A DNA stretch of 64,000 bases from NCBI GenBank assembly GCA_040388415.1, contig JAZKBV010000001.1:10369-74368 (forward strand). Direction: 5' to 3'. A model generated the notes under the pieces. It worked only from the letters and a program-made list of their open reading frames with translations. It did not search any database and was not told the DNA's origin. The stretch is from Patescibacteria group bacterium. Its GTDB lineage: Bacteria; Patescibacteriota; Minisyncoccia; Phycocordibacterales; PALSA-1337. The number at the start of each line of letters is the position of its first letter. The first letter of the stretch is position 1. Position numbers and translations under genes: made by a program. Below, piece after piece: positions 1,169 to 55,335 of the stretch.

Positions 1169-1178
1169 TTTAAGAAGA

Positions 1179-2201: not shown

Positions 2202-2206
2202 ATACT

Positions 2207-2938: not shown

Positions 2939-2964
2939 AACGTAACATGAATGCAGCAAATTAA

Positions 2965-21963: not shown

Positions 21964-21968
21964 GATGA

Positions 21969-22688: not shown

Positions 22689-22690
22689 AT

Positions 22691-24487
22691 TTAGAGAGGG
22701 GTAGGTGGACGTGCAGCCGCGGTACCTGATGTTGTTGTGCGATTCGCTCCTTGCCTATTGCCACCAAAGAGGTTGCCGAGAAGACCACCGCTTGTCGCGG
22801 TTGCTGCTGTCGAACCTTGGGCAACAGTTGTCATCTTGGTGACAACAGCTTGTCCTGCCGTGAGACCGCTCAGGATCTCGGTGTTGGTATCATCAGCGTC
22901 GCCGATGGTAACAATGACTTCAGTTGGAGCAGTAGCAGAGGTGACAACTATGCCCATTGCTGATCGATTTGCACTTGTTGATGATGAACCAGATGTTCTT
23001 GCAAATGTTCGTGCTCCTGATGTCGTCGAGACTGTTGATGATGCAATACGGTTTCGATTAAATGATGATGAAGCCATTCCCGTATCTAATATTTGAACGT
23101 AGTGGATATTTCCGCGTGTTTTGATGGCGCTTGAAGGAACGAGAAGTACGCTGTCTTTTTGCTCGGTGACGATAGTTGCGTTGAGACTCATGCCAGGCTT
23201 GATGCGGGAATCAGTCGTGTCGATCAATATTTTGACATTATATGTGACGACACCTGAACTGACAGTGCCTACGAGATCAACGGAACTAACTGTTCCAGTT
23301 GCAGTCAAACCATCGATTGCATCAAAAGTGATTTTGACTGGCTGGCCAGCTTTTACTTTTGATGCGTCAATTTCATTGAGTGAGATCGTAGAGATTTTTT
23401 GTTCACCGATCAAAGTGGCGATGGCTGCACTGCCAGCTTGGCCATATACTGATGCACTGATTTTTCCTACAATGCCGTCGAATGGTGCGCGAATAAAATA
23501 ATTGTTGTAGGTAAGCTGTGCCTGTTCGAGGTTTAATCGTTGTGATTGGAGATCGAGCGAGTCAGTTCCGTTCAAAAGGGTAGTGAGCGAATTGGAGCTT
23601 GTTTGGATGTTATTCTGGGCAGATAAGACATTTGATACGGCGCTATTGGTTGTATTGGACCACGTGTTCACGTTTGTCGCTGCGCTTGATCCAGAGCTTG
23701 TTTCGTACTGAGGTTGTGAAGTAGTGATAAAGCTAATGGCAGTTCGGGCGCTTGTCACCGCTTCGGCAACGTCTTTTGTCATGACATACGTGTCATTCAA
23801 TAGATCATCGAGACTTGAGGTGGCACTATCGCGACTGAGTGATTTGAATGTTGTGAGAACGGCATTGTATTCTGTGAGCGCTTTATCGTAATTTTTCCCC
23901 ACTGTATCTCGATATTCGCGAGCGGTAGGGTTGAGATATGATGAACGCTGATCGCTCAAGAAGCCGGATTGACCATAGAGCAGGTCTTTCATACCGGACA
24001 TGATGGTCGGTAAATCAGTGAAGATGCTTGCGACGGCACTGTATCCATTGTCGTAGGACTTTGAAACACTGCTCTGTGCTTCAGATAGATCGGTTTCTTT
24101 TGGTGGCGTGGTCAATTTTTCCATGGCGATTTGGGCGCTCTGGAGAGAGCGTAATGCATCCGTTGAGTCGATCGTCGCCAAGAGGTCGCCCTTTTTGACG
24201 TGGTCGCCGACTGATACCTTTATCGATGTGATTGTACCGCTTACTTTGCTTGTGATATCAAGTTGGTTGAGCGCCGAGACCTGTCCGGTGCCTGTGACTG
24301 TTTGTGTGAGGGTGCCGAGTCGCGCAACACTAAGTGTGTACTGGGTCTCAGTACCACCCGCTGATATCTTCGCGTACACTTCATAGCTTCCCCCGATGAG
24401 TACTGCGAGAATGATAAGGCTCCATATTTTATGTGCACCCACAAAGGCGCATGTTTTTGCAGAATATTTTTTAAGAAATGATTTCAT
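22691..24487 (-). CDS. Efflux transporter periplasmic adaptor (HlyD family) with long coiled coil and C-terminal S/T/G-rich low-complexity tail
   Basis: It has an N-terminal TM anchor, HlyD-like hairpin and barrel segments, and a 3 nt gap to the ATPase. At 598 aa it is unusually long for the family. Confidence 0.8.
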
Positions 24488-36458: not shown

Positions 36459-36716
36459 TTAATCCTCATGCCTGACCAAGAGCTTTCGGGGACCTTTAGG
36501 TGCTCGCTTGCGTGGGGGTCGTTTTTCCTTGTTTGTTGAAATTTCTGTCAAGAGTTTCTCGATGTCCTCACGACGATAGACACGGTAGTTGTTGAAGGGA
36601 TGTCGGCTCGCCTCAAGCTTGCCACTGTTGTCCCAATTGCGCAGGGTGAGAGCAGTTACTCCGAGCATTGTTGCTGCTTGTTTGACGGTTAAAAGGCGGT
36701 TTGAGCTCGTTTCCAT
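36459..36716 (-). CDS. Small MerR/excisionase-like helix-turn-helix DNA-binding protein
   Basis: It is an 85 aa protein whose HTH, LLTVKQAATMLGVTALTLRNW, is of MerR_1/HTH_17 type, with a basic C-terminal tail. A partial second copy lies 0.5 kb away. Confidence 0.6.
   Translation of the reverse strand: METSSNRLLTVKQAATMLGVTALTLRNWDNSGKLEASRHPFNNYRVYRREDIEKLLTEISTNKEKRPPRKRAPKGPRKLLVRHED
36524..36704. repeat. Direct repeat copy 1 (~180 bp, identical to 37201..37384)
   Basis: I compared the two copies base by base from the given sequence. They are identical apart from one T in a T-run at the 5' edge. Confidence 0.8.
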
Positions 36717-37116: not shown

Positions 37117-37384
37117 TTAAATATGTTGAAAATAGACAATTAACATAGCGTTTTTTATTAGCAGAAAGCAATGGCTTAAATAGTAGCTTTTTAAGAAACA
37201 GTTTTCCTTGTTTGTTGAAATTTCTGTCAAGAGTTTCTCGATGTCCTCACGACGATAGACACGGTAGTTGTTGAAGGGATGTCGGCTCGCCTCAAGCTTG
37301 CCACTGTTGTCCCAATTGCGCAGGGTGAGAGCAGTTACTCCGAGCATTGTTGCTGCTTGTTTGACGGTTAAAAGGCGGTTTGAT
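37117..37384 (-). pseudogene. Truncated duplicate of the MerR/Xis-like HTH gene (lacks start codon and native C-terminus)
   Basis: The copy covers codons 5-64 of the 36459..36716 gene, then diverges into unrelated sequence and a stop. Confidence 0.5.
37201..37384. repeat. Direct repeat copy 2 (~180 bp)
   Basis: It is identical to 36524..36704 and sits in the AT-rich noncoding gap. Confidence 0.8.
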
Positions 37385-37721: not shown

Positions 37722-38606
37722 ATGAAAAAGGACCAGATAATCATAGACGGAAAGACCTACATCTCGGCGCGCCGAGGTGCCGAGATTGCCGGATATTCAG
37801 CGGATTATGTTGGCCAACTCTGTAGAGCGGGAAAAATAGATTGCGCAATGATCGGACGTAGTTGGTATGTCGGCGAAGAATCTATTTTGAAGCACCAAGA
37901 AGAAGCATTCAAAGCAAATCAAACTTCATTCAAACCGAATGAAATAAAAAGTCCTTACTCGCATGCGCCTGTCAGTGTATTTCCTTTGCTTTTGACGGGA
38001 CCACATGGAGGAGCAGTCTCTGCAATTCCTCGTACTATGTCTGAGCAGGTGGTTCATGCAGCCCATCAAGTTGCTCATGAGGCCAATCGTGCCACACCTC
38101 GCGCACTTGTAGCCTCACTCGTTATTACTGCGGTGGTTGGAGTCGGTGCTTTGCTCGTGTCACCACTCTTCATGTCTTTGGATGCAATCTCATCTGAAGA
38201 ATCAAATTCAGCATCTGTTGTACAAGCTGACGGGTCAGTCAGTGCGACATCATTTATACAAAAGAGTTTGCGTGCGATTTATGACGCTTCAGTTAAATAT
38301 ACGGCGCTCGGTATTGTTCCATCTGTCACCGCTTCTGCTGATCAGACATCAAACGATGCTGATCCATATCAGGAGCTCGCGTACGGCGGTCTTGTGGTGA
38401 CGCCTTCACAAGGTACGACGACAGATGCAAAGCTCGCAAATGCTATCACCAACTCATTTTCTGACCCAGTCGAAGTTCGCAAGAATGAAAATACAAACAC
38501 AGGAGTCATCACCCCAATGTTCCGCACCGTGAAGGGACATGACTTTATGTATGTATTGGTACCAGTACAGACAACATCGTCGACTTCTAACAATGACTCA
38601 AAATAA
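37722..38606 (+). CDS. Membrane-tethered HTH_17 (excisionase-type helix-turn-helix) protein with extracytoplasmic Ser/Thr-rich domain
   Basis: The N-terminal 60 aa (YISARRGAEIAGYSADYVGQLCRAGKIDCAMIGRSWYV) resembles the HTH_17 domain. A single TM helix spans aa 128-150 and the C-terminal half is S/T-rich. It is the first gene of the giant-protein locus. Confidence 0.5.
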   Translation: MKKDQIIIDGKTYISARRGAEIAGYSADYVGQLCRAGKIDCAMIGRSWYVGEESILKHQEEAFKANQTSFKPNEIKSPYSHAPVSVFPLLLTGPHGGAVSAIPRTMSEQVVHAAHQVAHEANRATPRALVASLVITAVVGVGALLVSPLFMSLDAISSEESNSASVVQADGSVSATSFIQKSLRAIYDASVKYTALGIVPSVTASADQTSNDADPYQELAYGGLVVTPSQGTTTDAKLANAITNSFSDPVEVRKNENTNTGVITPMFRTVKGHDFMYVLVPVQTTSSTSNNDSK

Positions 38607-38607
38607 T

Positions 38608-39405
38608 ATGAAAACTCCATTCATGAACAATTTGAAGTCATTCAGAGTCGATTACGATAAGGTCTTCGCATTTATCGCTTTCTTGTCTCTCATCTCATAT
38701 TTCTTCGCTTCTTATGTCTTTGCGCAGAACATGTCGAGCACGAACTATTCGATTCCTGATCAGAGTATCAATTTTGCTGGTAAACTTTCTTCATCGACGA
38801 ACTATACTGTCGAAGATACGGCTGGTGAAGTTGCTACTGGCTTTGCTTCAAGCACGAACTATGGCATCAGTGCAGGTTATCAGCAGATGAATATCGTCAC
38901 TCTTTCAGTTGTTCCACCTTCAAATGTCATCATGTCTTCAGCTCTCGGTGGTGTTTCAGGTGGTAGTTCGAACGGTTCGACAACCTTTACAGTCACTACA
39001 GATGATGCTGCGGGTTATACGGCGACGATTACGGCTAGTTCTTCTCCTGCACTGGTCAGTGGAGCCAATTCTTTCGCTGATTATAGCCCTGCTGGCGCCG
39101 CTCCTGACTATACCTACTCGATCTTGCCAACAAACTCAAACTTTGGCTTCTCAGTACAAGGGACTGATACTGATCAACGCTTCAAGAATAACGGCTCGAT
39201 CTGCAATACAGGCTCAAATACGACAGCGACTACATGCTGGGACGGTCTCTCGACCTCACCAAAGACCATTGCTGGTCGTACAACGAACAATACGCCATCA
39301 GGAACGCAGACGGTGTTGTATTTCCGCGCAGCAACCGGGTCGAACCATATTCAAGTTAATGGCACCTATGTTGCAACAACAACACTGACCGTGACCCCGC
39401 TATAA
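38608..39405 (+). CDS. Secreted protein, member 1 of a 3-copy paralog family in this window (signal anchor, Ser/Thr/Asn-rich beta-rich body, conserved Cys pair)
   Basis: It shares blocks with 59815..60519 and 61594..62289, including MSSALGGVSGGSSNG...TTDDAAGYTATITASSS, FKNNGS.CNTG...C and a C-terminal TYVATTTLTVTP. It has an N-terminal hydrophobic helix. Confidence 0.6.
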   Translation: MKTPFMNNLKSFRVDYDKVFAFIAFLSLISYFFASYVFAQNMSSTNYSIPDQSINFAGKLSSSTNYTVEDTAGEVATGFASSTNYGISAGYQQMNIVTLSVVPPSNVIMSSALGGVSGGSSNGSTTFTVTTDDAAGYTATITASSSPALVSGANSFADYSPAGAAPDYTYSILPTNSNFGFSVQGTDTDQRFKNNGSICNTGSNTTATTCWDGLSTSPKTIAGRTTNNTPSGTQTVLYFRAATGSNHIQVNGTYVATTTLTVTPL

Positions 39406-39411
39406 ACCGAT

Positions 39412-42400
39412 ATGAAGCATTTTATCTACACAACTCTCGTACTTGTCGGACTCTTCACACAGAGCGCCTTTCCAGTACGTGCATCAGTTGGTAGTACGTT
39501 CACTGCTTCATTCACCACGACTGGCGTTGTAGATTCGATCGCTCCTACGACACCAGTTGGAGTAACAGCGACTCCAGTGTCTCAGTCACAGATCAATCTT
39601 TCATGGACACCTTCAACTGATAACATTGGTGTTGCCGGATATGTCATCTTCCGCGATGCATCTGCGGTTGCTACAACATCAGTTGCATCATTTGTTGATA
39701 CCGGATTGGTCGCAAGCACAACATACACATATGAGGCGCAAGCATTCGATACATCATTTAATTATTCAAGTACATCAGCTGCAGTATCTACGACAACACT
39801 TCCGGTTCCTCCAGTCATCGTGGCTACGTCAACGCCGACAACCTCACCAGTAGTTTCTGGTGGCACTTCAGGTACACCATTTATCCATGGATTGAACATT
39901 GCAGTGCAACCAACCGAGGCTTCGGTCACATTCAATACTGCACGTCCAGCGCGTTCAACTATCTCATGGGGTACAACATCAGATCTCGAAGGAGGTTCGA
40001 TCACCAGTATTTTGTACGATACAACACATGCAGTCACTATTTCGAATCTCGTGCCCAATACGCACTACTTCGCACGCATCACTGTAGTCGACGCACGTGG
40101 CAATCAGTTTGCGTCTTCGATCGAATTTGTCACGCCAACTCTCATATATTCACCACTCGTCAACCCATCTAACTTCAGCGCACAGTTCGCGACTGTCGGA
40201 CGCACCGGAGTCAATCTCACCTGGACAAATCCAAACGATGCTCGTTTTGACTCTGTGCGCATCGTTCGTTCTGAAAGCTTCTTCCCACGCGATCAGTTTG
40301 ACGGCGTGCTCATATATGAGGGTGCACGCGAATCGTTCTTCGATGCAACAGCTATTCCTGGCAAGACATACTACTACGCTATTTTTGCAAAGGATGCGAA
40401 CGGTGCATATTCATCAGGTGCATTGGCACAGGCTTCATCGGTTGTCGGCACAAATCCATTCGTCACTGCGCCACAAGCTGGCTATGTCGATCCGCTCATC
40501 GCACGTTTGACGATCGCTGACTTTGAATTCATCCAGCAGGGCAAAGATCTCATGGTGAATGGTACAAGCACGGTCATGATCAACGGTATGAACAACCTCA
40601 CGATCCGTTTGCCCTACAACAAAGTTCCTGAAGTGTTGAAGACGATCGCAGTTTCTCTCACTGATCCAAAAGACTCATCAAAGGCATTTATCTTCCTACT
40701 CCGCGCAAACACAGAGAAGACATACTACGAGGCAAGCATCGGTGCGCTCAACGCAGTTGGTTCATTCCCATTAGCTATCAGCATCCTCGATTATCAAAAT
40801 CAGAGCTTGAAACAGATCGCCGGTTCAGTCCAAGCTCTCGTTTTTGCTGCGCAAGCTTCTTCAAATGACACAGACCAGCTTTTGCTCTTGATCATCCTTG
40901 TCGCATTGGTTGCTCTTGTGGTCTACGTGATTCGTGGACGTCGTACGGTCGGTATGAACAAGATGACTGGCGCAACGCTTGCTCTCATCTTGGTGTTCGG
41001 ATCATTCGGAACATTCTTTACTCCACAAGCTCACGCTGCGATCAATCAGCAGATCAATTATCAGGGCAAACTAACCAATGCATCGAACATCGCTGTCGCT
41101 GATGGAAGTTACATCGCATCGTTCAGTTTGTATACGGCTCCATCAGGTGGCGCAGCGATCTGGACTGAGCTCGATAACGGATCAAATAAAGTTGTTGTCA
41201 GAAATGGACTCTTTAGTGTCATGCTCGGTTCGACAACACCTCTCACGGGAGTTGATTTCAATCAGACATTGTATCTCGGCGTGACAATCGAAAGTGATTC
41301 AGAAATGACGCCCCGCAAGGTTATCGGCACGGTGCCTTCAGCTATCGTCGCGCAAACTCTTCAGAACATCACTCCCGGTCAGTTGCTCCGCAGTGATATT
41401 CAAAACTCAACATCGACATCAGCAACATTCCTCAATGTATTGCAGAGTGGAGCAGGAAAGATTGCCGAGTTCTTTGGTCAGTCGAGTTTCAGTGTATTCT
41501 CACTTCTTTCAAATGGAAATGTTGGCGTCGGTACATCGACACCAGGTTCACGTTTTGCTATCGCAGGTGCAGCTGGCGCGACCACAGCGCTCTTTAGCGT
41601 TTCAACGTCGACATCAGGTTTTGCGACAACAACGACATTCCAAATCGATCAGAACGGTAGCCTCGCTCTCAGAAATGGCGCGACACTCACATTGAACAAT
41701 TTAAACGGTCCATTGCAGGCGAACAACGGCGTTGTATCAGCGACATCATCAGTAGGTGTGTTGTATGGAGGTACTGGAATTACGACAGCTCCAGCGTACG
41801 GCAACCTCTTGATTGGAAATAACACAGGAGGTTACACGCTTACTGCGACATCTTCACTTGGTCTCGCCAACTTAACTGCAACAAATAGTACCCTCACATT
41901 TTCAGGTGCATATAATGGAAGTACTGCTCGCACAGTTGGTATCAACTTGGCTAATTCAAATACATGGACAGTCAATCAAGCATTTAATGCAAATGATAGT
42001 ACATCTGGCTCTATAAAAATTCAAAACGGTTCAGTCACTTCGAATTCGGGAGTTATCGGTATCGCAGGTTCATCAAATGCGCTCGCCACTGGAGCGGCGT
42101 CAGGGGATTTTGTGCTCAGTACAGATTTTTCTAATATTATCTTCTCGGCAAAGAGCGGGTCACGATCTGACATCTATATCAGAAGTAGTGATGGATATGT
42201 CGGCATCGGTACCACCTCACCATTTGCAAGACTTTCAGTCGACGGTCGCGGTGTCTTCAATCAAGATGTCCGTGCTGATTACTACACAGCAACTTCAACC
42301 TCGATCGCTTCAACTTTCCCATATGCTTCAACAACTGCTCTTACAGTTGCAGGTACAAATGGTCTTACGGTTGGTACATTGAATGGTCCTCTCCAAGCAA

Positions 42401-45400
42401 ATAACGGAACAGTTTCAGCAACCTCATCAATTGGTGTTCTCTACGGTGGCACTGGACTCACCACTGCTCCTACGTATGGCCAAGTGCTCGTAGGTAATGC
42501 TCTTGGTGGTTATACGCTTACCGCGACATCTTCACTCGGTTTCCCAGTTGGCGCTGCATATCCATTCACCTCACTCACCAACTATGGTGCAACTAACCAA
42601 GCAACCACGGGCATCGCATGGTTCCAGAATGGGTTGAATGCAAGTTCGACATCGCACTTTGTGAATGCATCTACCACCGCGCTCACTGTCGCAGGCAACC
42701 TCTATGTTGGCTCACTCAGTGGCCTCCTCCTTGCAACTAACGGCACAGTTTCATCAGTCTCAACTTCATCACTTAACCTTTCAATACCTCTCGCTTCAAC
42801 AACAGGAACACTTGGTGTTGCAAACGGCGGCACAGGGGCAACGGCCTTCGGACAAGGATGGATCTACTCAGTCGGTGGCACCGGAGCATTGAGTGCTTCT
42901 ACAAGTCCAACGGTTACATTCCTTTATGCAACTTCAACCTCGATCGCCTCAACCTTCCCATACGCTTCAACCACAGCGCTCACCGTGTCAAACGGCGCAG
43001 GATTCTTCCTCGGCTCACTCAACGGCCCACTCCAAGCAAATAACGGAAAGGTAAGTGCAACCTCATCAGTTGGTGTTCTCTACGGTGGCACCGGACTCAC
43101 AACAGCCCCTTCATATGGCAATATCTTGGTTGGTAATGCTCTCGGCGGGTATACGTTGACCGCGACTTCATCTCTCGGCATCACAGGTGTATCAGGTGGC
43201 ACCGCAGGCATGCTCACCTCATGGACTGGCGGTTCAACTCTCACTGCAACTGGTACTCCAACAGCTGCTGCATACTATGCTTCATCGACGACTGCGACAT
43301 CAACGTTCATGGGTGGTTTCGTTGCTGGCACGAACGGACTGACGGTGCTTCAGAATGGCAATGTCGGCATTGGAAATACAGCTCCACTTAATAAGTTCGA
43401 TGTGACCGGCAGTTTTAATTCGCAGTCACTAGATGGACAATCGATCAGAAACAATGATTCAGAAGGCATCGTTCTCGATGATGGCGGCAATGGGACAGGA
43501 ATCAGGCTTACCTCGTTGGGCACTGAATTTAGAGTCGATGGCAATAATGGCGCTTTCTTGTTCAATTCTGGAAACGTCGGCATCGGCACGTCATCACCAT
43601 TCACGGCTCTCTCAGTCATGGGTAATGGATATTTCGCAGGCAATGTCACCGCATCAAACTTCACTGCAACATCTACAACAGCGACAAGTACCTTCCCGAT
43701 CTTGAGACAAGGTGAAATCGCTATCATCGATCCTCTCGGAAGTGCAAAGTATGTCGTTGCTACCACCTCAACTGATGTAGGACGCGGAAATGCTTTGAAG
43801 TATGCTGTTTCGATCGCCCAAAACGGTTCTTCGATATACCTCGCATCTACGACGTATGATCTCGGAAACTCGACCCTGGATTTGAGTCGATTGAATACAT
43901 TTTTTGTTCATCTGCATGGTGCTGGCAAGTATAGTACAGTCATCAAGAGCACTGCCACATTTGGTGTTCTCGATATCAATTCAGGCGAAGAGATAACAGA
44001 TCTGTCTGTCATAAATCCAAGTTATATCGGTATCAATTCTATAGAAGCATTCCGTAATGTTCTTATAAAGGATGTTTACATTCTAGCGGGAACAGTGGGT
44101 ATGTCATTGACGCCTGATAGAGATGGAACTGGCTACATAGAGAACGTAACGATCGATTCAAAGGGCGATGGCATACAAATGGCAAATGGAGTCTATGACA
44201 GCACTATGATGAGGATCTTCATACACGATTCCGATATCCGTGGAATACCAGGCGGCTCATCGACTGCGTATGGTATCAAGGCCGATGGTGTGACCGCGTA
44301 CATTTATAATACGAACATAGATATGTCAGCGTCAGGCGGCGCGACCTCGTATGGTCTTGAAGTTAGCGAGCGAAATGATTACCCCGGATATCTCTACGTA
44401 TCAGGCGGACAAATCTCGTCCAAGACCACGGACTTGGTGAATACTGCTGGAACGCCAGACAGTACGCTTTCTATCACTGCAAACACGATCTACGATGTTT
44501 CAAAGGCAACTGGGACACTTGCATACGCTGACGCGAATCAGATAATTAAAAGCATTTCGCATGGGACAGAAAATCTAGGCTTGGGAAGTCCAAATCCAAC
44601 ACATAAATTGGAGGTTAACGGTACCTCATTCTTTGAGTGTGGCGATGTTGATGATGCCTTTTCAGTGTACGATACTCCTGATGCTATAAGCAGACTTAAA
44701 GTTAATTGTGACAATCCATCTGTCGTTCTAAATAACCTTATGACAGTAACAGAGGGCGCTGTCGGCATCGGCACCAGCTCGCCATTCACTGATCTCTCAG
44801 TTGTTGGCAATGGATACTTCACGGGCAATCTCACTGCAACAAATATTACAGCGACAGGCACACTCAAGGTTGGTACTCTTAACGGTCCGCTCCAAGCGAA
44901 TAATGGTATCGTCAGTGCAACTACATCGGTCGGTGTTCGTTACGGAGGTACAGGGCTCACGACCGCTCCTTCATATGGAAATATTCTTGTTGGAAACAAT
45001 GCAGGAGGTTACACACTCACTGCGACGTCATCGCTCGGTCTCGGTTCAGGCACTGTCAACTCTGGTCTTCAGGGACAGGTAGCGTTCTATAATGCAAATG
45101 GTACCGCTGTTACTGGTACTTCAACGTTGTTCGTTGGGACGAATGGAAATGTTGGAGTCGGGACGACATCGTCAAGTGAAAAATTGACCGTCAATGGAAA
45201 TCTTCATTTAGTGAATTCAGCAAGCAACGCATTCGATGGATTTACTATCGATGCAAATAATGGCGAGACTGGTATCTTGCGTGCGCCAGGTGCTTCAAGT
45301 GCTGCTCTCCAATTTATTGCTGGAACAGGTAATTCAGGTGGTTACTTCGGAATTAGAAATTCAGGTGGAACGAACGGTACTGGTCAATTCTTCTTTAACT

Positions 45401-48400
45401 CAACACAACTTTCACAGGATGTTCAATTTGAAACTAATTTTGCTAACTCATATCTTGGAAATGATGGAAGCATGAATTTGAACAACACTCTCTATATGCC
45501 AGCTGGGGCGGGAAGTATCGGTATCGGAACGGATGCTCCAGGAAGCGTATTACACCTTAAGTCAGTTAATCCAACGCTTACCGTTCAAAATAACGGCGCT
45601 GACGGTGTCGATTCAATATCTTTTGTTGATGATGAAGCTGAAAAGGCATCTATAAAAATGGATGCAGGAAACAATTTGTTCAGCCTATCAAGCAATTACA
45701 ATATTGCATTGTTGTCTAATAACAACGTCGGTATCGGAACCGCTGCTCCTGCATATGCTCTCGATGTCAACGGCTTCGTGAACGTGGATGGTGCATATGG
45801 ATACAAGCAAGATGGAACCACGATCCTCGTCGCAAGCAGCACAACATTGTCTGTATTGCTTGGTGGCAATGCGGGCGCATCGCTCACAGATCCAAATGGT
45901 CTCAGTAATACCGCGATCGGTTTCAATACATTGTCTACAGCAACATCTTCGGTTGAAAATACTGCTGTTGGTTACAATGCGCTCGCAAACAATGGCACAA
46001 ACTACAATACCGCCGTCGGTACCTGGTCAATGTATGCCAATACATTTGGTATCGATAACACTGCTATCGGTGGATATAGCCTTCGTTCAAATACGACAGG
46101 TTCAAGCAGTGCTGCGGGAGGTACATCAGCGCTCCAGGCAAATACAACAGGTTCGTTTAACACCGCTTTTGGTAAATCTTCGCTTCGTTTTAACACCACT
46201 GGTTCAAACAATACCGCTCTTGGTTTTCGTGCATTATTCAACTCTCTCGGCACAGGAAATATCGGCATCGGTTATTCAGCAGGAAAGTATGAGACTGGTT
46301 CAGACTCATTCTATGTAGACAACCAAGATAGAACAAACACAGCGGGAGATAAGGCTAGCGCACTCTTGTATGGTAAATTCAATGCGACAGCTGCGAACCA
46401 GACGCTCGTCATCAATGCATCAACTACTGTCGCGCAGAGCTTGAGCGTCCTTGGTTCAGGTGCCTCATACTTCCTTGGTAACCTCGGTATCGGTACAAGT
46501 TCACCATTTACAAAGTTTGCAGTCATGGGTGACGGTTACTATGCAGGAAATGTAAAAGCTTCAAACTTTACCGCTACCTCGTCTACTGCATCAAGTTTCC
46601 CATATGCTTCAACCACCGCGCTCACTGTCGCAGGCAACCTCTATGTTGGCTCACTCAGCGGCCTCCTCCTTGGAACAAACGGCACCGTCTCGGCAGTATC
46701 AACCTCATCACTTAACCTTTCAATCCCTCTTGCTTCAACAACAGGAACGCTGGGTGTCGCTAATGGTGGCACCGGAGCAACGACCTTCAGCCAAGGTTGG
46801 ATATATTCAACAGGTGGTACAACAGCACTCTCAGCTTCCACGAGTCCAACAGTCAACTACTTCACTGCAACTTCAACCACGATCGCTTCAACATTCCCAT
46901 ACGCTTCAACAACAGCTCTTACAGTTGCCGGCACAAACGGTCTCAAGGTCGGAACACTGAACGGCCCACTCCAAGCTAACAACGGTACAGTATCAGCAAC
47001 CTCATCAGTTGGTGTTCTCTACGGTGGCACAGGACTCACTACAGCTCCTGCATATGGTCAGGTCCTCGTCGGTAACGCACTTGGTGGTTACACTCTCACT
47101 GCTACGTCGTCACTTGGTATTACAGGAGTATCAGGTGGCACCGCAGGCATGCTCACCTCATGGACAGGGGGATCAACGCTCACCGCAACCGGCACTCCAA
47201 CAGCTGCTGCATACTATGCTTCATCGACGACAGCGACATCGACGTTCCGTGGCGGTTTGAGTGTTGCTGGCTCAGCAGGTCTCACTGTCCTTCAGAATGG
47301 CAATGTTGGTATCGGTACTGCATCTCCTAGTTATAAACTCCATGTCGCTGGCACTTTTGCTGTACAAACTGGTACCGGAGGCTCAACTAGTGATTCTCCA
47401 AGCTCTGATTCTTTCACCACAACATATCCTAATATCACTGCAAACAGCGTTACTGGTGATTATGGAGGTTTCTCATTTACATTCTATGATGACGGAAGCG
47501 GTAATCTTCTTGATACTGGTGATGATCATCAGATTGGAACAATTAACTATGTGAATGGAGTAGTAAGTACAGTTGATTTTGGTGATGATACAATCGACCA
47601 AATAAATTACACATATAGTGGCACGTATGCTTTAACTACTGATTCTAGTGGAAAAGTAGGTATCGGAACACTTTCTCATCTCTCAAATCTCGACGTTGGA
47701 GGCAATGTGGCTATCGGTTCATATGCCGGAACAAATGCCGCGCCAACTAATGGTCTCATTGTCAGCGGTAACGTTGGTATCGGCACTGCTTCACCTGAAC
47801 AAACTTTGCATGTGAAAGGTCCTCTACTTATAGAAGGTAATCCGACTCCGCGTTTGTATTTCAAATCAAATGATGGTAACTGGTTCGTGATAGATAGATA
47901 TTCTGGACAGGAATCATACAGCGGTTATTTTGGAGAGAATGGTGACACGGGTGATTTGTTCTTCCGTGGACAAGGCAGCTTCTATTTTGGTGACCAATCA
48001 ACACCAGCAATCCTCGCCAACGGCGCGACCAAAAAAGCGACATTTATATTTGCTTCAAGTACTGCATTTAGCACAGCATACGCATCATCAACAAGAGATT
48101 TCGTCGGCACGCTCAATCTCCCAAATATCACTGGCACACAATGTCTCCATTCGGTGAGCGGTGTAGTAAGTGGTACAGGAAGCGATTGCGCATCAGTTGC
48201 ATACCCATTCACCTCACTCACCAACTATGGTGCAACTAACCAAGCGACCACTGGCATCGCATGGTTCCAGAATGGCATCAATGCTTCAAGTACATCACAC
48301 TTTGTGAATGCTTCAACAACAGTTCTTTCGGCAACAGCGATTTGTATCTCAACTGACTGTCGTTCTGCATGGCCAACTGGTGGTGGCAGTGGGGGTGGCT

Positions 48401-51400
48401 CATGGTCAACGACTACGTCACAAGTTACAGGACGTCTCGTAAATTACTCAAACAATACGACTGATATCGTCGCTATCGGCGCAAACTCAACTACAACAGC
48501 GAAATATTGGTTTGATCCAAACACACAGACATCATTCTTGTCAGGCAATGTCGGTATAGGTACAACCTCGCCATTCACCGCGCTTTCAGTCATGGGTAAT
48601 GGTTACTTTGCTGGCAACGTCACTGCCTCGAACTTCACCGCTACTTCAACAGTTGCTTCAACTTTCCCATACGCTTCAACAACAGCTCTTACAGTTGCAG
48701 GTACAAATGGTCTTACGGTTGGTACATTGAATGGTCCTCTCCAAGCAAATAACGGAACAGTATCAGCAACCTCATCAGTCGGTGTTCTCTACGGTGGCAC
48801 AGGACTTACCACTGCTCCTACATACGGACAGATCTTGGTTGGAAACAATGCAGGAGGATACACGCTTACTGCAACTTCATCACTCGGTCTTCCAACATTC
48901 CAGTACCCATTCACCTCACTCACCAACTATGGTGCAACTAACCAAGCCACAACAGGTATCGCATGGTTCCAGAATGGTTTGAATGCGAGTTCGACTTCAC
49001 ACTTTGTGAATGCATCTACCACAGCTCTCACTGTCGCAGGCAACCTCTATGTTGGCTCACTCAGCGGCCTCCTCCTTGGAACAAACGGCACCGTCTCGGC
49101 AGTATCAACCTCATCACTTAACCTTTCAATCCCTCTTGCTTCAACAACAGGAACGCTGGGTGTCGCTAATGGTGGCACCGGAGCAACGACCTTCAGCCAA
49201 GGTTGGATATATTCAACAGGTGGTACAACAGCACTCTCAGCTTCCACGAGTCCAACAGTCAACTACTTCACTGCAACTTCAACCTCGATCGCTTCAACCT
49301 TCCCATACGCTTCAACAACAGCTTTTTCGGCGACTGGAAATGCATATGTAGGCGGTGCGCTTGCGGTCGGAAATCAATACATTGTCGCAACAGGAACGAA
49401 CGCTTTCGCATCAGGATATTCTGACGGTGCCGGAGGTCTCTCGTTGATAAAATCGACAGGTGTTGGCTCTGTGGCGCTTGGTTATGTATTAAATGCAGGT
49501 TCGATTAATTCAAATAATAGCGGATCTGTCGCGGTCGGATATGCGGGCTATGGAAACTCTATCAACTCACAAGCAGCAGGCTCTTTTGCTGGAGGAAATA
49601 CGACAATCTTGTCTGGAAACATCGTAGCGTCTGGAGCCGGCTCATTTGTATGGGGCAGCAATATCAGCGCGACTCAAAGCCTGTCGACTGCCTTTGGTAA
49701 AGGGTTCACTAACTCGACAGCAGATACATTCCAAGTTGGATATTCGTCAACGCCTACGCTTACTGTTAATACTACGGGTGTTGGTATTGGCACGACATCG
49801 CCATACGCACCTCTTTCGGTTAATGGTCAGGTAGTTGCATCATACTTCACCGCAACTACATCTACTGCTTCGGTATTCCCATACGCTTCAACAACAGCGC
49901 TCACAGTTGCTGGCACCAACGGTCTTACGGTTGGTACATTGAATGGTCCTCTCCAAGCAAACAATGGCACAGTTAGTGCAACCTCATCAGTTGGCGTCCT
50001 CTACGGAGGCACAGGACTCACTACAGCTCCTACGTATGGCCAAGTGCTCGTAGGTAATGCTCTTGGTGGTTACACATTGACCGCAACATCTTCACTCGGT
50101 TTCCCAGTTGGCGCTGCATATCCATTCACCTCACTCACGAACTATGGTGCAACCAACCAAGCAACCACTGGCATCGCCTGGTTCCAGAATGGGTTGAATG
50201 CAAGTTCGACATCGCACTTCGAGACAGCACTTTTCAATGGCAATGTCGGCATCGGCACCACCTCACCATTCACTGCTCTCTCAGTTATGGGCAATGGATA
50301 CTTCGCAAATAACGTCACTGCATCATATTTCACTGCAACTTCGACAACTGCAACATCAACATTCGCCGGTGATATCAGTGTCGGTTCAGGTGGCTCAGAT
50401 GCTTTCGTTGTTGATTACTCAGGTAACGTTGGTATCGGCACTTCTACACCATGGAAGACACTTTCAGTCGCGGGCAGTATGGTCCTCACCGGTGGCTTGT
50501 ATGACAACGCCGCTTCAGCTGGTACCGCAGGATATGTCCTCATGTCGACTGCAACAGGTGTACGCTGGGTTGCGACAACAACTTCTTCGGGTACATATTC
50601 ATTTACTCCTCTCACCAACTTCGGCGCAACGAATCAGGCAACCACGGGCATCGCATGGTTCCAGAATGGGTTGAATGCAAGTTCGACATCACATTTCGAC
50701 AATGCTTCAACGACAGTTTTGTCAGCAGCAACGATCTGTATCTCAACAGACTGTCGTTCAGCATGGCCAACAGGAGGCGGTAGTGGTTCGAGCTCATGGT
50801 CAACAACAACCTCATCAGTTGCAGGACGCTTCATCAACTACTCGAACAACACGACTGACATCGTCACTATTGGCGGCAACGCAACCACAACCGCAAAGTA
50901 CTGGTTCGATCCAAATGCATTCACTTCATTCTTCACTGGCAATGTCGGCATCGGCACCACTTCACCGTTCACCGCGCTTTCAGTTATGGGTAGTGGATAC
51001 TTTGCAAACAATGTGACCGCTTCGTATTTCACCGCAACTTCGACAACGGCAACAAGCACCTTCGCTGGAGATGTCACCGTTGGTTCAGGTTCAGATACAT
51101 ATTTTATCGTAGATTACACAGGCAACGTTGGTATCGGCAGTACCACACCATACGCAAAGCTCTCAGTTTCAAATGGCTCGCAGCAAGACGGAACATTGCC
51201 ACTTTTCACTATTGCTTCAACTACAAATCAGAGCCTGTTCGCTGTTCTTGGAAATGGAAATGTCACTATTGGAACCACTTCCCAGCAATCGATCGACCCA
51301 AACAATCCTGCTAAGCTGCTTATCGACATGGGCACTAGCCAGAGTGAAGAAGGGATAAATGTCATAGGCACTGTTAACGACTTTTTGGAAAACAATGTCA

Positions 51401-54400
51401 AAAATCTGAGTTCTGGTCTTAATGCACAAGCGTGTCAGACTGCCACCGCAAACAATGGATCTGACCTGACAGGTTTTGTCTCCATCTGTGCTAATAACTC
51501 GAATTTCTACAATCCACAGACTTACAATGTTGGTGGAGGAGGTGATACATCCGTAATGTCCTTGGCCTCTGGAGATTTCTATATTAACAACGCTACGGCA
51601 AACAAGAAGCTCTACTTCATGACAGGCGGCACCGCGACATCAACAAATATCCGCATGACTGTTGATGGTAACGGCAACGTTGGTATCGGCACAACCACAC
51701 CAAATGCACTCCTTGCTCTTGTGGGTCAGAGCGGTTCAACAGGTCAGATCTTCGACGTCGCTTCATCGTCGGGCGCTTCTTACTTCCATATCACTTCAGC
51801 AGGAAATATCGGCATTGGAACTTCGTCTCCATTTGCAAAACTTTCTATTACTTCTATTGCACAAAATGGTGGAAACTCTCTCCTCACAGTGGCCTCAAGT
51901 AGCGGTTCAACTTTGTTCACTGTTCTTGGTAACGGCAATGTCGGCATCGGCACTTCAAGTCCTCTCGCAACCCTCCATCTCTATAATACAAATACTCCTG
52001 GCGCAGCGCCGTCGATCCTTATGGGAGGAAATAATGGGGGCGACACAGATTTCTGGATGGCGCGCGTCAATGATAATGATTCTACGGATAATGACTTCTT
52101 CCAGATTGGAACAGGAAATACGCCTGGCACGAATCCATATTTCAGCATCAATAGAAACGGATATGTAGGCGTCGGCACCACTTCGCCATTTGCAGTGGTA
52201 TCGATCGCAAATACACGCAACAGCGTCGCCAATACTCCGCTTTTGACCATTGCTTCAACAACGAATGGAACGGCAACCTCAACTCTTATGACAGTGCTTG
52301 CAAACGGCTCTATCGGCATGGGATCAAGTACTCCATCAAGCCTCGCAACTCTCAGTGTCAGCGGTTCAACATACTTGGGCTCAGGCATAGGAACTAGTTT
52401 GACTATCCACTCAGGTATCATCAACTATCCGACACAGGCAACAAGTACAGTTTTGAACGGTCTCGATAACGTTTGGTCTATTGCCACCTCTACGACAAAT
52501 ACTCCGATCTTCAGTATCTCAACACGTTCAAGTCCAGCAGGTCTCATTGGTATCGGCACATCATCACCATTCGGCAGATTCTCACTTGAAATGGGAACAA
52601 TGGCCAATAGTCTCTGGATCGGTAACCAGGGTAGTTCGACACCTTCATTTGTCATCGCTGGTGTGAACGGCAACGGCTCAGTCGGCGTTGCGACGAACAC
52701 CCCTTCAGCGAACTTCGCATTCTCAGTTGGTGGTTCTACGTATCTCGGCGCTGGCGTAGGTAGCAACTTGACTATCCATAGCAACCTCATCAACTATCCG
52801 ATTCAGTCGACCACAACTGTTCCAACAGGAGCGTTTGGCTGGTCTCTCGCGACTTCTACCGCGACTACTGGAAACCCACTCTTCACTACTTCTACGAACG
52901 GTGCAACTTCAACACTCGGCTTCTTTGTCGCTACGACAACAGGACTTGTTGCTGGTCAGGGTATGGGTCTCCCGTCAGCTCTCCAGAACTATATGATCGT
53001 TGGTAACGGTAAGGTTCAAGCTGGTATAGCTATTGTGAAAGGTGGTCTCTGTGTCGATAGTGATGGCTGGTGTACGGCTTCAACTACTGGTCGTGTCACT
53101 GCAGTCTCATCAACACTTGGTGGTTCAGACGTCGCTGAAATGTATTCATCAGCAGATGATCTCAAGCCAGGCGAGATTGTCAGTGCAAGCTATGGCACAT
53201 CGATCGTCCGCGCTTCAAAGGATACCGCTCACTCTCTCATGGGCATCGTTTCTACTGATCCTGGTTTGATACTCGGTCTCCAGCCAGACTCATCAGAATT
53301 TGCAGCAGGAAAGTTCCCAATCGCTCTTAATGGTCGCGTCCCAGTCAGAGTAAGCAATGAAAATGGTCCTATCGCTATCGGTGATCCGATCACTATCTCA
53401 TCAGTCTCTGGCGTCGGTATGCGTGCAACCGGAAGTTCAACCAAGGTGGTCGCCATCGCTCTCGAGCCGATGAACGATGTGAGCGGAACCGTCATGGGCT
53501 TTGTTCAGAACTACGAGCACGATGATCATCTTGCAAGTTTGTCAGTTGATACGAGCGGTACACTCAAGACAGTTGGTGATGTCTGTGCATACGGCACGCA
53601 GTGTTTGAGTGCTTCACTCAACCATATCAATGACCAGTTGAGTGCATTGTCTGCAACTGCCTCATCGACAAATACTGGCAGCGATATATCGAACGTATCG
53701 AGCCAGCTCGCAGCACTACAAGCTCGTATAGATTCTCTTGCATCATCGACTGTTTCGATCGCCGACTTCGCCTCAACGACCTCACGCCTCGAAACATTGA
53801 GCACTTCAACCCTCGCCATGATCGCTTCAACGACTGCTACCACTATCGCTTCATCGACAACATTCATCCAGTCAGTTGCTCTTGCGGTCTACGACATCAT
53901 GAACTCAAGCGGTCAGGTCATCAGCTCTGCAGGAGATTGGTCTGTCCATCAGATCACCGCCGCAATCGGTAATTTCCAGACGCTCATCGCTGGTCGCGTC
54001 GAGACCCAGACAGCCGCAGTGTCAAATGGTCTCGAAATGAAGTCACCAAGCGGACAAACCTGGTGTGTTCGCATCGATGATATGGGTAATTTCCAGAGAA
54101 CACAGGGATCATGCGACACAGCAACATCGACGCCGGTCGTGTCAGCAGCGCCAGTTATCCAAACAAATCCTGTATTTGATACGACATCAACAGGAACTAC
54201 CACAACAGCTACGAGTACCGTGACTACGGTAGAAGATGTAAGCGCAAGCTCAACACCAGCGACTACAGGAACAGAGGGTGCGACCGCCACATCAAGTACA
54301 GCAACAATAACTTCAGATCCTGCACCGAGCCCAACACCTACAACTGAAACTGCGACAGCACCCGCTCCAGAGACATCAACAGTCTCATCAGTAGCACCAA

Positions 54401-54468: not shown

Positions 54469-55335
54469 ATGAAAAAAATACTCTTTACTGTATCGCTCAT
54501 GCTCATCCTCTCAACGGGAGGCAATTATGCCTATGCGCTTGAAGATATTACTACCGGACTTGTCGCGCACTATACATTTGACGAGGGAACTCGATATGCC
54601 ACTGTTATTGATAGCTCTGGAAATAGTCATGATGGAACACCTCAAGGCAACGGTCCTTTTCAGCCGCAATATTCTACAGATACGCCGATCAATACCTATT
54701 CATTATCGTGTAATCAAGATGCACAGCAGGGTGAGGCAGTTAACGTAGGAAATTTCCTTGATAATGATCCAACATTTACCGTATCACTTTGGTATAAGGG
54801 TCATGCCATGGGACAAGACGAAATGATTATCGGTAAGTGGAGTCCAGGCGGTCAGTCCACTGGAGCAGGGTGGGGAATGATGCAGTTCATTAGCGGCGAA
54901 AATCTGATTGACGGTCAGCTTCAAGATCCAGGAGGAGCGAACTGGGTCGAGCAAAATTTTTCGCAGACGCAGGATAACTTGTGGCATCATCTCGTTATGG
55001 TTACAAATGGAGATCTTACGACTGGGTTGGATGATACGAACATGACGTTTTATATCGATGGAGTAGTTGCGACTATTGATTATGTCCTTGGTGGTGGTCA
55101 CGGAACTGTTCATTCATTTACAAATAGTAATGATATTATTTTGTGTGGATCACAGGGCGGTCAACCGACGCTCGAAGGTCAAATCGCTGATGTTCGTTTG
55201 TACGATAGGCCGCTCACAGGGGCGCAAGTTACAGCGCTCTATAACAAGCAGGGTAGCGGGGCGCCTCAATATAAGACAAAGATCTCTACATTACGTCGTT
55301 TTGCGGTCAAAGTTGGAAGGTATTTTCACTTCTAA
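54469..55335 (+). CDS. LamG-like jellyroll (concanavalin A-like lectin) domain protein, secreted
   Basis: It has a signal peptide and LamG_3-like blocks (FTVSLWYK...WHHLVMV...FYIDGV...VRLYDRPLT). It lies 22 nt after the giant gene, with TATAAT directly upstream. Confidence 0.7.
   Translation: MKKILFTVSLMLILSTGGNYAYALEDITTGLVAHYTFDEGTRYATVIDSSGNSHDGTPQGNGPFQPQYSTDTPINTYSLSCNQDAQQGEAVNVGNFLDNDPTFTVSLWYKGHAMGQDEMIIGKWSPGGQSTGAGWGMMQFISGENLIDGQLQDPGGANWVEQNFSQTQDNLWHHLVMVTNGDLTTGLDDTNMTFYIDGVVATIDYVLGGGHGTVHSFTNSNDIILCGSQGGQPTLEGQIADVRLYDRPLTGAQVTALYNKQGSGAPQYKTKISTLRRFAVKVGRYFHF

What the first reader, a model, noticed from the sequence alone, without database searches (positions are those of the whole stretch)
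40879..41040. Internal TM hairpin followed by a second signal-peptide-like segment inside the giant ORF
At aa 493-542 the protein reads LLLLIILVALVALVVYVIRGRR TVG MNKMTGATLALILVFGSFGTFFTPQAHA|AIN.

That is a hydrophobic helix with a positively charged stop-transfer, then an in-frame Met at 40954 heading a second hydrophobic stretch that ends in a canonical AxA site.

Three outcomes are possible:
- The N-terminal 500 aa FN3 module stays membrane-anchored while the 4.5 kDa-scale... rather, the roughly 4500 aa fibre is released after signal-peptidase cleavage.
- Translation re-initiates internally at 40954.
- Two ancestral genes (an FN3 anchor protein and a fibre protein) fused by loss of a stop codon.

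Each would be an unusual way to build a surface fibre.
Basis: seen in the sequence. Interest (0 to 1): 0.55.

Follow-up and report, generated by a model that had tools for sequence, protein, structure and literature searches.

The report
Fused anchor-fibre gene, internal signal peptide
Two neighbouring surface-protein genes of an ultrasmall (Patescibacteria/CPR) bacterium, a membrane anchor and a giant fibre, have merged into one 5,011-residue reading frame, so the fibre's export signal now sits inside the protein as the second arm of a membrane hairpin; it still looks cleavable, and the same merger recurs in many related species.

Summary
The giant ORF (39412-54447, 5011 aa) contains TM1 (aa 490-507), a loop RGRRTVGMNK, then a signal-peptide-like segment (aa 518-542) ending AHA|A. 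These are the only strongly hydrophobic segments after the N-terminal signal peptide.

Comparison with 79 related Patescibacteria loci explains it. In 44 of the 74 informative cases (73 loci plus the window) the anchor (FN3 ectodomain, TM, Arg-rich tail) and the fibre are separate, tightly coupled genes. The fibre start overlaps the anchor stop in 25 of those 44. In 30 cases, including the window and its 81% and 75% relatives, they form one frame with the same hairpin. A tree needs at least 10 fused/split switches, and the window sits in an all-fused clade of 10.

The AxA site (-1 Ala in 29/30, -3 small, -2 free) and the mature N-terminus A[IF]N..INYQGKL are as conserved in fused as in split loci. 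Nine fused loci have no start codon between TM1 and the hydrophobic core.

Best reading: a gene fusion makes an N-out/C-out hairpin polyprotein that signal peptidase I probably cuts into anchor and fibre. Cleavage is inferred, not shown. Internal re-initiation is disfavoured. This is a new variant of a known principle, of moderate interest.

The parts
39412..54447 (+). Fused anchor-fibre ORF, 5011 aa
   Evidence: Single ORF with no internal stop. The same continuous frame is present in L001 (81% identity) and L002 (75% identity), from independent assemblies.
39412..39483 (+). N-terminal signal peptide of the anchor module (aa 1-24, MKHFIYTTLVLVGLFTQSAFPVRA|S)
   Evidence: Read directly from the sequence. 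Homologues carry an equivalent N-terminal signal.
39484..40878 (+). Anchor ectodomain (aa 25-489): FN3 domain, FN3-like domains and a conserved membrane-proximal domain
   Evidence: Pfam fn3 at aa 48-123 (E=1.2e-11) and a weak Pur_ac_phosph_N match at aa 166-225. In most homologues this module is a stand-alone protein of about 510-600 aa ending in a TM helix and an Arg/Lys tail. AF2 gives beta-sandwiches at aa 253-341 (pLDDT 76-90) and aa 372-459.
40879..40932 (+). TM1, stop-transfer helix (aa 490-507), formerly the C-terminal membrane anchor of the FN3 protein
   Evidence: KD19 maximum 3.15. Aligns with the C-terminal TM of stand-alone homologues. AF2 helix 486-512.
40933..40962 (+). Cytoplasmic loop RGRRTVGMNK (aa 508-517), 4 K/R and no acidic residues; contains ATG Met515 (40954-40956)
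   Evidence: Where the parser resolved TM1 (24 of 30 fused loci), the loop has 3-9 K/R; in 18 loci it is 4-16 aa long, and in several others the TM1-h2 linker runs to about 40-150 aa.
40963..41037 (+). Internal signal-peptide-like segment / TM2 (aa 518-542), with c-region TPQAHA and predicted signal peptidase I site A542|A543
   Evidence: KD12 2.28. Position -1 is Ala in 29/30 fused and 41/44 split loci, -3 is A/T/V/S/G, and -2 is variable. Homologous to the N-terminal signal peptide of the fibre gene in split loci. AF2 helix 518-535.
41038..41073 (+). Conserved mature N-terminus of the fibre, AINQQINYQGKL (aa 543-554)
   Evidence: Near-invariant A[IF]N[KQ][EQ]INYQGKL directly after the AxA site in 74 loci.
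41038..54447 (+). Giant fibre module (aa 543-5011, about 448 kDa), Thr/Ser/Gly-rich with dispersed repeats
   Evidence: No Pfam or NCBIfam family was found; Pfam covered all but aa 4175-4196.
38539..39405 (+). Upstream cassette gene up2: secreted protein, distantly PamT-like
   Evidence: NCBIfam NF058579 CPR_pilus_PamT at E=4.6e-11, 42.6 bits, far below the cut-off of 240. Found upstream of the anchor in 77 of the 79 related loci.
37722..38606 (+). Upstream cassette gene up1: HTH-like N-terminus followed by a hydrophobic segment
   Evidence: Weak Pfam HTH_17 match. Found upstream in 71 of the 79 related loci.

Best explanation
The segment is the seam of a gene fusion.

Origin. The ancestral state is a two-gene pair.
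- Gene 1 encodes a type I membrane protein: a cleaved N-terminal signal, an FN3-rich ectodomain, a C-terminal TM helix and an Arg/Lys tail.
- Gene 2 is translationally coupled to it and encodes a giant fibre with its own Sec signal peptide.
- In the window's lineage the boundary was lost, so one 5011-aa chain is made.

Topology.
- The N-terminal signal exports the FN3 module.
- TM1 (aa 490-507) stops transfer.
- The loop RGRRTVGMNK stays in the cytoplasm, following the positive-inside rule.
- The former fibre signal peptide (aa 518-542) re-enters the translocon as the second arm of a helical hairpin and restarts export of the 4469-aa fibre.

Processing.
- Signal peptidase I then most likely cuts after AHA542.
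- The predicted products match those of the two-gene relatives: a roughly 55-kDa anchor, now ending in a hairpin, and a free roughly 448-kDa fibre starting AINQQINYQGKL.

What is shown: the segments, the fusion/fission pattern, and conservation of the cleavage motif.
What is inferred: the topology and the cleavage.
Speculative: the fusion may guarantee fibre synthesis and translocon delivery in a genome where no Shine-Dalgarno-like motif was found upstream of any of 29 ORF starts checked.
For: 1. Most homologues of aa 1-514 in the hit list are stand-alone proteins of about 510-600 aa that end in a TM helix plus an R/K tail.

2. Of 79 related species-level genome loci, the 74 informative cases (73 loci plus the window) split into two states.
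- 44 have a stop after the anchor, followed by a fibre gene with an N-terminal signal peptide.
- 30 have one continuous frame with TM1, a K/R loop, a hydrophobic segment, AxA, then INYQGKL.

3. In split loci the fibre start overlaps the anchor stop in 25/44 (for example ATGA) and lies 0-20 nt away in 13/44. A small mutation is therefore enough to fuse them.

4. A neighbour-joining tree with Fitch parsimony needs at least 10 state changes (label shuffles: mean 22.7, minimum 15). The window lies in an all-fused clade of 10 deeply diverged members. Fused ORFs continue for thousands of codons.

5. Per-position entropy in fused loci is 0.21 at -1, 1.18 at -3 and 3.06 at -2. In split loci it is 0.36, 1.10 and 3.48. 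This is the classical signal peptidase I signature, undiminished after fusion. Peak hydrophobicity of the segment is the same in both classes (p=0.95).

6. Loops are K/R-rich (window: 4 K/R, 0 D/E).

7. Nine fused loci have no ATG/GTG/TTG between TM1 and the hydrophobic core, and eight more have one only inside the core. In those loci the fibre can only be made as part of the fused chain.

8. L001 and L002 share the junction with no indels (87% DNA column identity).
Against: - No experimental evidence of cleavage or topology exists.
- SignalP and DeepTMHMM could not be run.
- The AF2 model is low-confidence in the hairpin (pLDDT about 30-65).
- The uninterrupted apolar run is slightly longer in fused loci than in split loci (median 18 vs 15 residues, p=0.018, not corrected for phylogeny). 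That could mean adaptation towards a permanent TM helix.
- The window itself keeps two in-frame ATGs (Met515, Met518) in the loop, and its three nearest relatives have ATG/TTG/GTG at the Met518 position. Some internal initiation cannot be excluded for this particular locus.
- Signal peptidase I was not found among the roughly 33 window ORFs scanned, and its presence in the genome is assumed.
Confidence: 0.6

Rival explanations
1. Uncleaved hairpin. The fusion is real, but the second hydrophobic segment now acts as a permanent TM2. The 5011-aa protein stays in one piece, with both the FN3 module and the fibre outside, tethered by the hairpin.
For: The two hydrophobic segments and the K/R loop fit a stable hairpin. 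The apolar run is somewhat longer in fused than in split loci (18 vs 15 residues, p=0.018). Tethering would solve how a fibre stays on a cell.
Against: If cleavage had been abandoned, the -1 and -3 positions should drift. They remain as conserved as in true N-terminal signal peptides (A at -1 in 29/30), including across the old all-fused clade, while -2 and -4 vary freely. A Pro or Ser at -5 and a polar c-region are retained.
Confidence: 0.22
2. Internal translation start. The fibre is made mainly as a separate polypeptide starting at Met515 (nt 40954) or Met518 (nt 40963) inside the long ORF. The fused frame would then be largely incidental.
For: Two in-frame ATGs lie in the loop. The Met518 position is ATG, ATG, TTG and GTG in the window, L001, L002 and L003. 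No Shine-Dalgarno-like motif was found upstream of any of the 29 ORF starts checked (0/29), so its absence at the junction is uninformative.
Against: - Met515 is absent in L002 (75% identity), where the loop reads RSRRTNSTNKLTG.
- Nine fused loci have no possible start codon between TM1 and the core, and eight more have one only inside the core.
- No promoter-like site lies near the junction.
- In split relatives the fibre start is coupled to the anchor stop codon, and no stop codon exists here.
- TTG and GTG are the expected single-base descendants of an ancestral ATG.
- A start at Met518 would give a signal peptide with no charged n-region.
Confidence: 0.1
3. Artefact or decay. The continuous frame results from a sequencing or assembly error, or from a recent inactivating mutation in a pseudogenising locus.
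For: One protein-database relative (P0001) ends 25 aa after the junction.
Against: - The same in-frame junction occurs in L001 and L002, which are independent assemblies, with no indels.
- It also occurs in 27 further species-level genomes.
- The frames stay open for thousands of codons.
- The fused state is clade-wide.
Confidence: 0.02

Closest known systems
Enveloped-virus glycoprotein polyproteins (flavivirus prM-E, alphavirus E2-6K-E1, bunyavirus Gn-Gc). Comparison from my own knowledge; one search retrieved only an orthobunyavirus review.
   Same: Ectodomain, stop-transfer TM, short cytoplasmic turn, then a second hydrophobic segment that serves as the signal sequence for the next ectodomain and ends in a signal-peptidase site. 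One ORF yields two exported products.
   Different: Those are viral, act in the eukaryotic ER and use the host signal peptidase complex, and their cleavage is shown experimentally. Here the protein is a bacterial chromosomal gene, cleavage is only inferred, and the fused form coexists in evolution with a two-gene form.
Bradyrhizobium japonicum FbcH cytochrome b-c1 precursor (Thony-Meyer et al., recalled from my own knowledge; not retrieved)
   Same: A bacterial fusion of two normally separate membrane or exported proteins, in which the downstream partner's signal peptide lies internally and is removed to give two mature proteins.
   Different: A respiratory complex rather than a surface fibre, with the upstream partner a polytopic protein and no sequence relationship. 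I could not verify the details in the held library.
Ordinary Sec signal peptide of the stand-alone fibre genes in related Patescibacteria
   Same: Homologous segment with the same hydrophobicity (p=0.95), the same AxA site and the same mature N-terminus.
   Different: In the window it is preceded by 517 residues, including a TM helix, instead of a start codon.
Pam pilus system of CPR bacteria (Troman et al. 2026, bioRxiv 10.64898/2026.03.03.709456): PamR anchor, PamT tip pilin and a co-localised tail-fibre-like gene
   Same: - It is a CPR-specific surface-filament cassette.
- PamR is an FnIII protein with a C-terminal TM helix, proposed to anchor the filament.
- The window's upstream gene is distantly PamT-like.
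- A tail-fibre-like gene accompanies pam operons.
   Different: - The PamT match is far below the family cut-off (42.6 vs 240 bits).
- The anchor matched no Pam-named NCBIfam model, and the 17 window ORFs scanned against NCBIfam gave no PamA/B/C/D match.
- Pam pilins are reported mainly in Saccharimonadia and Microgenomatia, whereas the nearest relatives here are labelled Paceibacterota.
- The paper describes N-terminal signal peptides on all components; a term search and the two sections read show no mention of a fused anchor-fibre or an internal signal peptide.

Membership tests
Sec-type signal peptide with a signal peptidase I site (here internal) | Positively charged n-region | tested here: met
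   The loop RGRRTVGMNK has 4 K/R and 0 D/E. Where TM1 was resolved (24 of 30 fused loci) the loop has 3-9 K/R.
Sec-type signal peptide with a signal peptidase I site (here internal) | Hydrophobic h-region | tested here: met
   KD12 is 2.28 in the window. The fused median is 2.77 and the split median 2.88, p=0.95.
Sec-type signal peptide with a signal peptidase I site (here internal) | Small neutral residues at -1 and -3 with a free -2 position, and a polar c-region with a helix breaker | tested here: met
   The window has A540-H-A542|A543 with Pro at -5. Position -1 is Ala in 29/30 fused loci (entropy 0.21), -3 has entropy 1.18 and -2 has entropy 3.06.
Sec-type signal peptide with a signal peptidase I site (here internal) | Actual cleavage by signal peptidase I | not testable with these tools
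   This needs N-terminal proteomics or expression experiments. SignalP was also unavailable.
Helical-hairpin (N-out/C-out) membrane insertion | Two membrane-length apolar segments separated by a short loop enriched in K/R | tested here: met
   TM1 is 18 aa (KD19 3.15), the loop is 10 aa, and the second segment has about 18-25 uncharged residues. AF2 predicts helix, break, helix at low confidence.
Fusion of adjacent genes (Rosetta-stone type) | Orthologues of both halves exist as separate adjacent genes in the same order and orientation | tested here: met
   44 of the 74 informative cases are split, and in 38 of those 44 the genes are within 20 nt or overlapping.
Independent internal gene start | Conserved start codon with an initiation signal upstream of the second hydrophobic segment | tested here: not met
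   - Met515 is not conserved in L002.
- Nine fused loci have no start codon at all in the interval.
- No promoter-like site is present.
- The Shine-Dalgarno criterion is uninformative (0/29 ORF starts checked have such a motif).

C-terminal sorting signals (LPXTG/sortase, PEP-CTERM, PGF-CTERM) | Conserved signature motif immediately before the TM helix and basic tail | tested here: not met
   The alignment of 27 anchors has no conserved motif between the last conserved domain (LDYQNQ.LK) and the TM.
Pam pilus operon (CPR-type pilus) | Members score above the NCBIfam cut-offs for Pam proteins | tested here: not met
   Only up2 matches PamT, at 42.6 bits against a cut-off of 240. The anchor, the fibre and 10 other window ORFs gave no Pam match.
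Pam pilus operon (CPR-type pilus) | Donor-strand-exchange architecture (truncated Ig-like domain plus a donor strand) | not tested
   This would need multimer structure prediction with contact output.

The most novel reading that the evidence does not exclude
Many Patescibacteria build a surface appendage from a true bacterial polyprotein.
- Signal peptidase I would cut an internal signal peptide in a TM hairpin, as in enveloped-virus glycoproteins.
- The lineage has switched between a two-gene and a one-gene form at least ten times.
- The freshly exposed, near-invariant N-terminal strand AINQQINYQGKL would then dock by strand complementation onto the FN3 anchor or the PamT-like neighbour.

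That would make this cassette a Pam-like, chaperone-usher-style filament system whose anchor and fibre come from one ORF.
Probability: 0.15. Interest if true: 0.7.

Novelty: new variant of a known kind. Interest (0 to 1): 0.5.

Why it matters
- Internal signal peptides processed by signal peptidase are textbook for viral polyproteins, but only a handful of bacterial cases are known.
- Here evolution has run the experiment repeatedly. The same element serves as an N-terminal signal peptide in 44 of the 74 informative cases and as the second arm of a TM hairpin in 30, with the cleavage motif intact.
- That gives a ready-made comparative system for asking what a signal peptide needs in order to work internally in bacteria.
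- It affects annotation. Giant CPR 'proteins' of this type are probably two mature products.
- It links an FN3 membrane anchor functionally to a giant fibre in a conserved four-gene surface cassette of organisms whose host-attachment machinery is largely unknown.

Tried and rejected
- **Family searches of the fibre.** Pfam and NCBIfam found no family for the fibre.
- **Solved structures.** PDB sequence searches with the anchor's C-terminal half and the fibre's N-terminus gave only noise or a generic FN3 match.
- **AlphaFold2.** The model of aa 245-720 used a 6-sequence alignment and was too poor (pLDDT 52.7) for a fold search or domain-contact inference. I used only its secondary structure.
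- **Literature.**
  - Searches for bacterial internal signal peptides, FbcH and CPR giant surface proteins returned nothing directly relevant.
  - 'PamT' alone returned unrelated hits.
  - The Pam pilus preprint was found only through the NCBIfam lead.
- **Shine-Dalgarno test for an internal start.** Abandoned as uninformative, because none of the 29 ORF starts checked has such a motif upstream.
- **C-terminal sorting signal.** Considered (LPXTG or PEP-CTERM type) and rejected, because no conserved motif precedes TM1.
- **Phage origin of the fibre.** Considered and rejected.
  - The cassette lies between housekeeping genes: gatB and a class II tRNA synthetase upstream, and a queuine tRNA-ribosyltransferase-like ORF downstream (my reading of the translation; not family-searched).
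  - Related cassettes were found in 79 species-level genomes.
- **Pinpointing the fusing mutation.** Not attempted, because sister fused/split pairs are too diverged, judging from the tree.
Full report
**Observation**

The window carries one uninterrupted ORF, 39412-54447, of 5011 codons. Its layout is:
- an ordinary N-terminal signal peptide (aa 1-24, ...FPVRA|S);
- an FN3-containing region (Pfam fn3 at aa 48-123, E=1.2e-11);
- LLLLIILVALVALVVYVI (aa 490-507, nt 40879-40932);
- RGRRTVGMNK (aa 508-517; Met515 at nt 40954, Met518 at nt 40963);
- MTGATLALILVFGSFGTFFTPQAHA (aa 518-542, nt 40963-41037);
- AINQQINYQGKL... from aa 543.

On a Kyte-Doolittle scan of the whole protein, the only windows above 1.5 are the N-terminal signal, a marginal one at aa 441, aa 484-495 (maximum 3.15) and aa 518-520. 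The two adjacent hydrophobic segments are therefore a singular feature of this 5011-aa protein, not background.

**What the halves are**

A search with aa 1-640 found that most of the homologues listed are stand-alone Patescibacteria proteins of about 510-600 aa. They end in a TM helix followed by an Arg/Lys-rich tail. Five homologues, however, run straight on into '...INYQGKL'. I then fetched 79 related loci from species-representative genomes, mostly labelled Paceibacterota, Patescibacteria or 'uncultured Saccharibacteria'. The two closest encode anchor modules 81% (L001) and 75% (L002) identical to the window's.

I located the anchor's last conserved domain and the fibre's first domain in each locus by tblastn and read the DNA between them. 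This gave two states among the 74 informative cases (73 loci plus the window):
- **Split, 44 cases.** There is a stop codon after the anchor's tail, and the fibre is a separate gene with its own N-terminal signal peptide.
- **Fused, 30 cases**, including the window, L001 and L002. There is one continuous frame with TM1, a K/R loop, a second hydrophobic segment, AxA, then A[IF]N..INYQGKL.

Fused frames stay open for thousands of codons or to the end of the contig. L001 and L002 align to the window across the junction with no indels (87% column identity). The continuous frame is therefore not an assembly error or a fresh pseudogene.

**How the fusion arises**

In split loci the two genes are tightly coupled. 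The fibre's start codon overlaps the anchor's stop in 25 of 44 loci (ATGA and overlaps of 8 to 23 nt) and lies 0-20 nt downstream in 13 more. A point mutation or a one- or two-base indel is enough to merge them.

A neighbour-joining tree of the concatenated flanking domains, scored by Fitch parsimony, needs at least 10 fused/split changes (label shuffles: mean 22.7, minimum 15). The inferred root state is split. The window sits in a clade of 10 deeply diverged loci that are all fused. The fused state is thus both recurrent and long-lived, which argues that it is functional.

**Is the second segment still a signal peptide?**

Aligned on the predicted site, fused loci have Ala at -1 in 29 of 30 (entropy 0.21), A/T/V/S/G at -3 (1.18) and a freely varying -2 (3.06). 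Split loci, where the segment is an undoubted N-terminal signal peptide, give 0.36, 1.10 and 3.48. Positions +1 to +11 are near-invariant in both classes.

Peak hydrophobicity is indistinguishable (median 2.77 vs 2.88, p=0.95). The uninterrupted apolar run is somewhat longer in fused loci (18 vs 15 residues, p=0.018, not corrected for phylogeny). The retained -3/-1 rule next to a free -2 is the signature of selection by signal peptidase I. I take it as the main, though indirect, evidence that the internal site is still cut.

**Topology**

Where the parser resolved TM1 (24 of the 30 fused loci), the loop carries 3-9 K/R, usually with few acidic residues. In 18 loci it is only 4-16 aa long (KKKK in L048 and L051), and in several others the TM1-to-h2 linker runs to about 40-150 aa. 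With a cleaved N-terminal signal, this fits an N-out/C-out helical hairpin:
- the FN3 module lies outside;
- TM1 acts as the stop-transfer helix;
- the basic loop lies inside;
- the second segment re-initiates export of the fibre.

A low-confidence AF2 model (pLDDT 52.7) agrees on secondary structure: helix 486-512, a break, helix 518-535, coil across the site, and a strand at 548-553.

**Internal re-initiation**

The window has ATGs at 40954 and 40963. Against re-initiation:
- L002 reads RSRRTNSTNKLTG, with no ATG in the loop.
- Nine fused loci have no ATG, GTG or TTG anywhere between TM1 and the hydrophobic core, and eight more have one only inside the core. In those the fibre can only be made as part of the fused chain.
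- No promoter- or terminator-like site lies at the junction.

No Shine-Dalgarno-like motif precedes any of the 29 ORF starts checked, and many have a TATAAT-like box 6-9 nt upstream. The absence of a Shine-Dalgarno motif at the junction is therefore uninformative.

The ATG/ATG/TTG/GTG series at the Met518 position in the four closest loci is what single-base decay of an ancestral start codon would produce. I keep internal initiation as a minor possibility for this particular locus.

**Context**

The window is chromosomal. GatB, a class II tRNA synthetase, ABC/MacB systems and a class II aldolase flank the region.

The anchor and fibre belong to a conserved cassette. Among the 79 related loci, up1 (37722-38606, HTH-like N-terminus plus a hydrophobic segment) is present in 71 and up2 (38539-39405) in 77. 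A secreted LamG protein follows the fibre in the window.

up2 gives a distant match to NCBIfam 'CPR-type pilus protein PamT' (E=4.6e-11, 42.6 bits against a cut-off of 240). The Pam pilus preprint (bioRxiv 10.64898/2026.03.03.709456) describes the following:
- PamR, an FnIII protein with a C-terminal TM helix and an N-terminal strand, proposed to anchor a donor-strand-exchange filament;
- a tail-fibre-like gene co-localised with pam operons.

The resemblance in logic is a lead only. The anchor and fibre match no Pam model, so membership is not supported. The near-invariant strand right at the predicted new N-terminus does make a docking role, possibly by strand complementation, worth testing.

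**Comparison and verdict**

Mechanistically the closest analogues are two, both cited from my own knowledge:
- the TM-hairpin/internal-signal junctions of enveloped-virus glycoprotein polyproteins;
- among bacteria, the cytochrome b-c1 precursor FbcH. The held library did not return the primary papers.

The origin is an ordinary fusion of adjacent genes. What is unusual is that a Sec signal peptide has repeatedly been converted into the second arm of a hairpin while keeping its cleavage motif, in about 40% of the cases sampled.

I rate this a new variant of a known kind, with interest 0.5. The fusion origin and the existence of the hairpin are essentially certain. Cleavage is probable (about 0.6), an uncleaved tether is the main rival (about 0.2), and internal initiation is unlikely (about 0.1).

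Noticed in passing
window 38539-39405 (+): The gene immediately upstream of the giant ORF is a secreted protein with repeated S-x-N-Y motifs. It gives a distant NCBIfam match to the CPR-type pilus tip pilin PamT (E=4.6e-11, far below cut-off). It is found upstream of the anchor in 77 of the 79 related loci.
   Followed up: partly
L034-L078 (e.g. L037, L048, L057); proteins P0031, P0033 and P0054: In many related loci the N-terminal domain of the up2-like protein lies directly next to, or is fused with, the anchor's C-terminal domain in place of the FN3 repeats. P0031 is a triple fusion of up2 N-domain, anchor C-domain, TM, linker and fibre. The cassette is therefore modular and fusion-prone beyond the junction studied.
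   Followed up: partly
whole window (29 gene starts checked): None of the 29 ORF starts checked has a Shine-Dalgarno-like motif upstream. Many have a TATAAT-like box only 6-9 nt before the ATG, which suggests leaderless mRNAs and stop-start coupling as the main initiation modes.
   Followed up: partly
window 36523-36704 and 37202-37383: An exact 182-nt direct repeat, 679 nt apart, duplicates the N-terminal part of a small HTH (MerR/excisionase-like) ORF on the minus strand, just upstream of the cassette.
   Followed up: partly
window 41686-51090: The fibre coding region contains five families of dispersed direct repeats, 160-300 nt long with 2-7 copies at 62-89% identity. They correspond to repeated protein modules (...TLNGPLQANNG.VSATSS.GVLYGGTG..., NGNVGIGTTSP...).
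   Followed up: partly
window 57881-58642 (-) and 54469-55335 (+): Two LamG (Laminin_G_3) proteins lie near the cassette. One has a type IV pilin N-terminal methylation motif (GFTLIELLVV). The other is a secreted protein encoded 22 nt after the fibre's stop.
   Followed up: no
L042, L068, L070, L073: In a subgroup of related loci the anchor does not end after its TM. It continues for about 330 further residues (to the stop codon), including further hydrophobic segments and a CarboxypepD_reg-like motif (DLDGRYGF...G.Y), before the fibre gene.
   Followed up: no
window 59-4203 (+) and 20737-24487 (-): There are two separate HlyD / ABC ATPase / MacB-FtsX efflux-type gene sets in one 64-kb window of a small-genome organism.
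   Followed up: no
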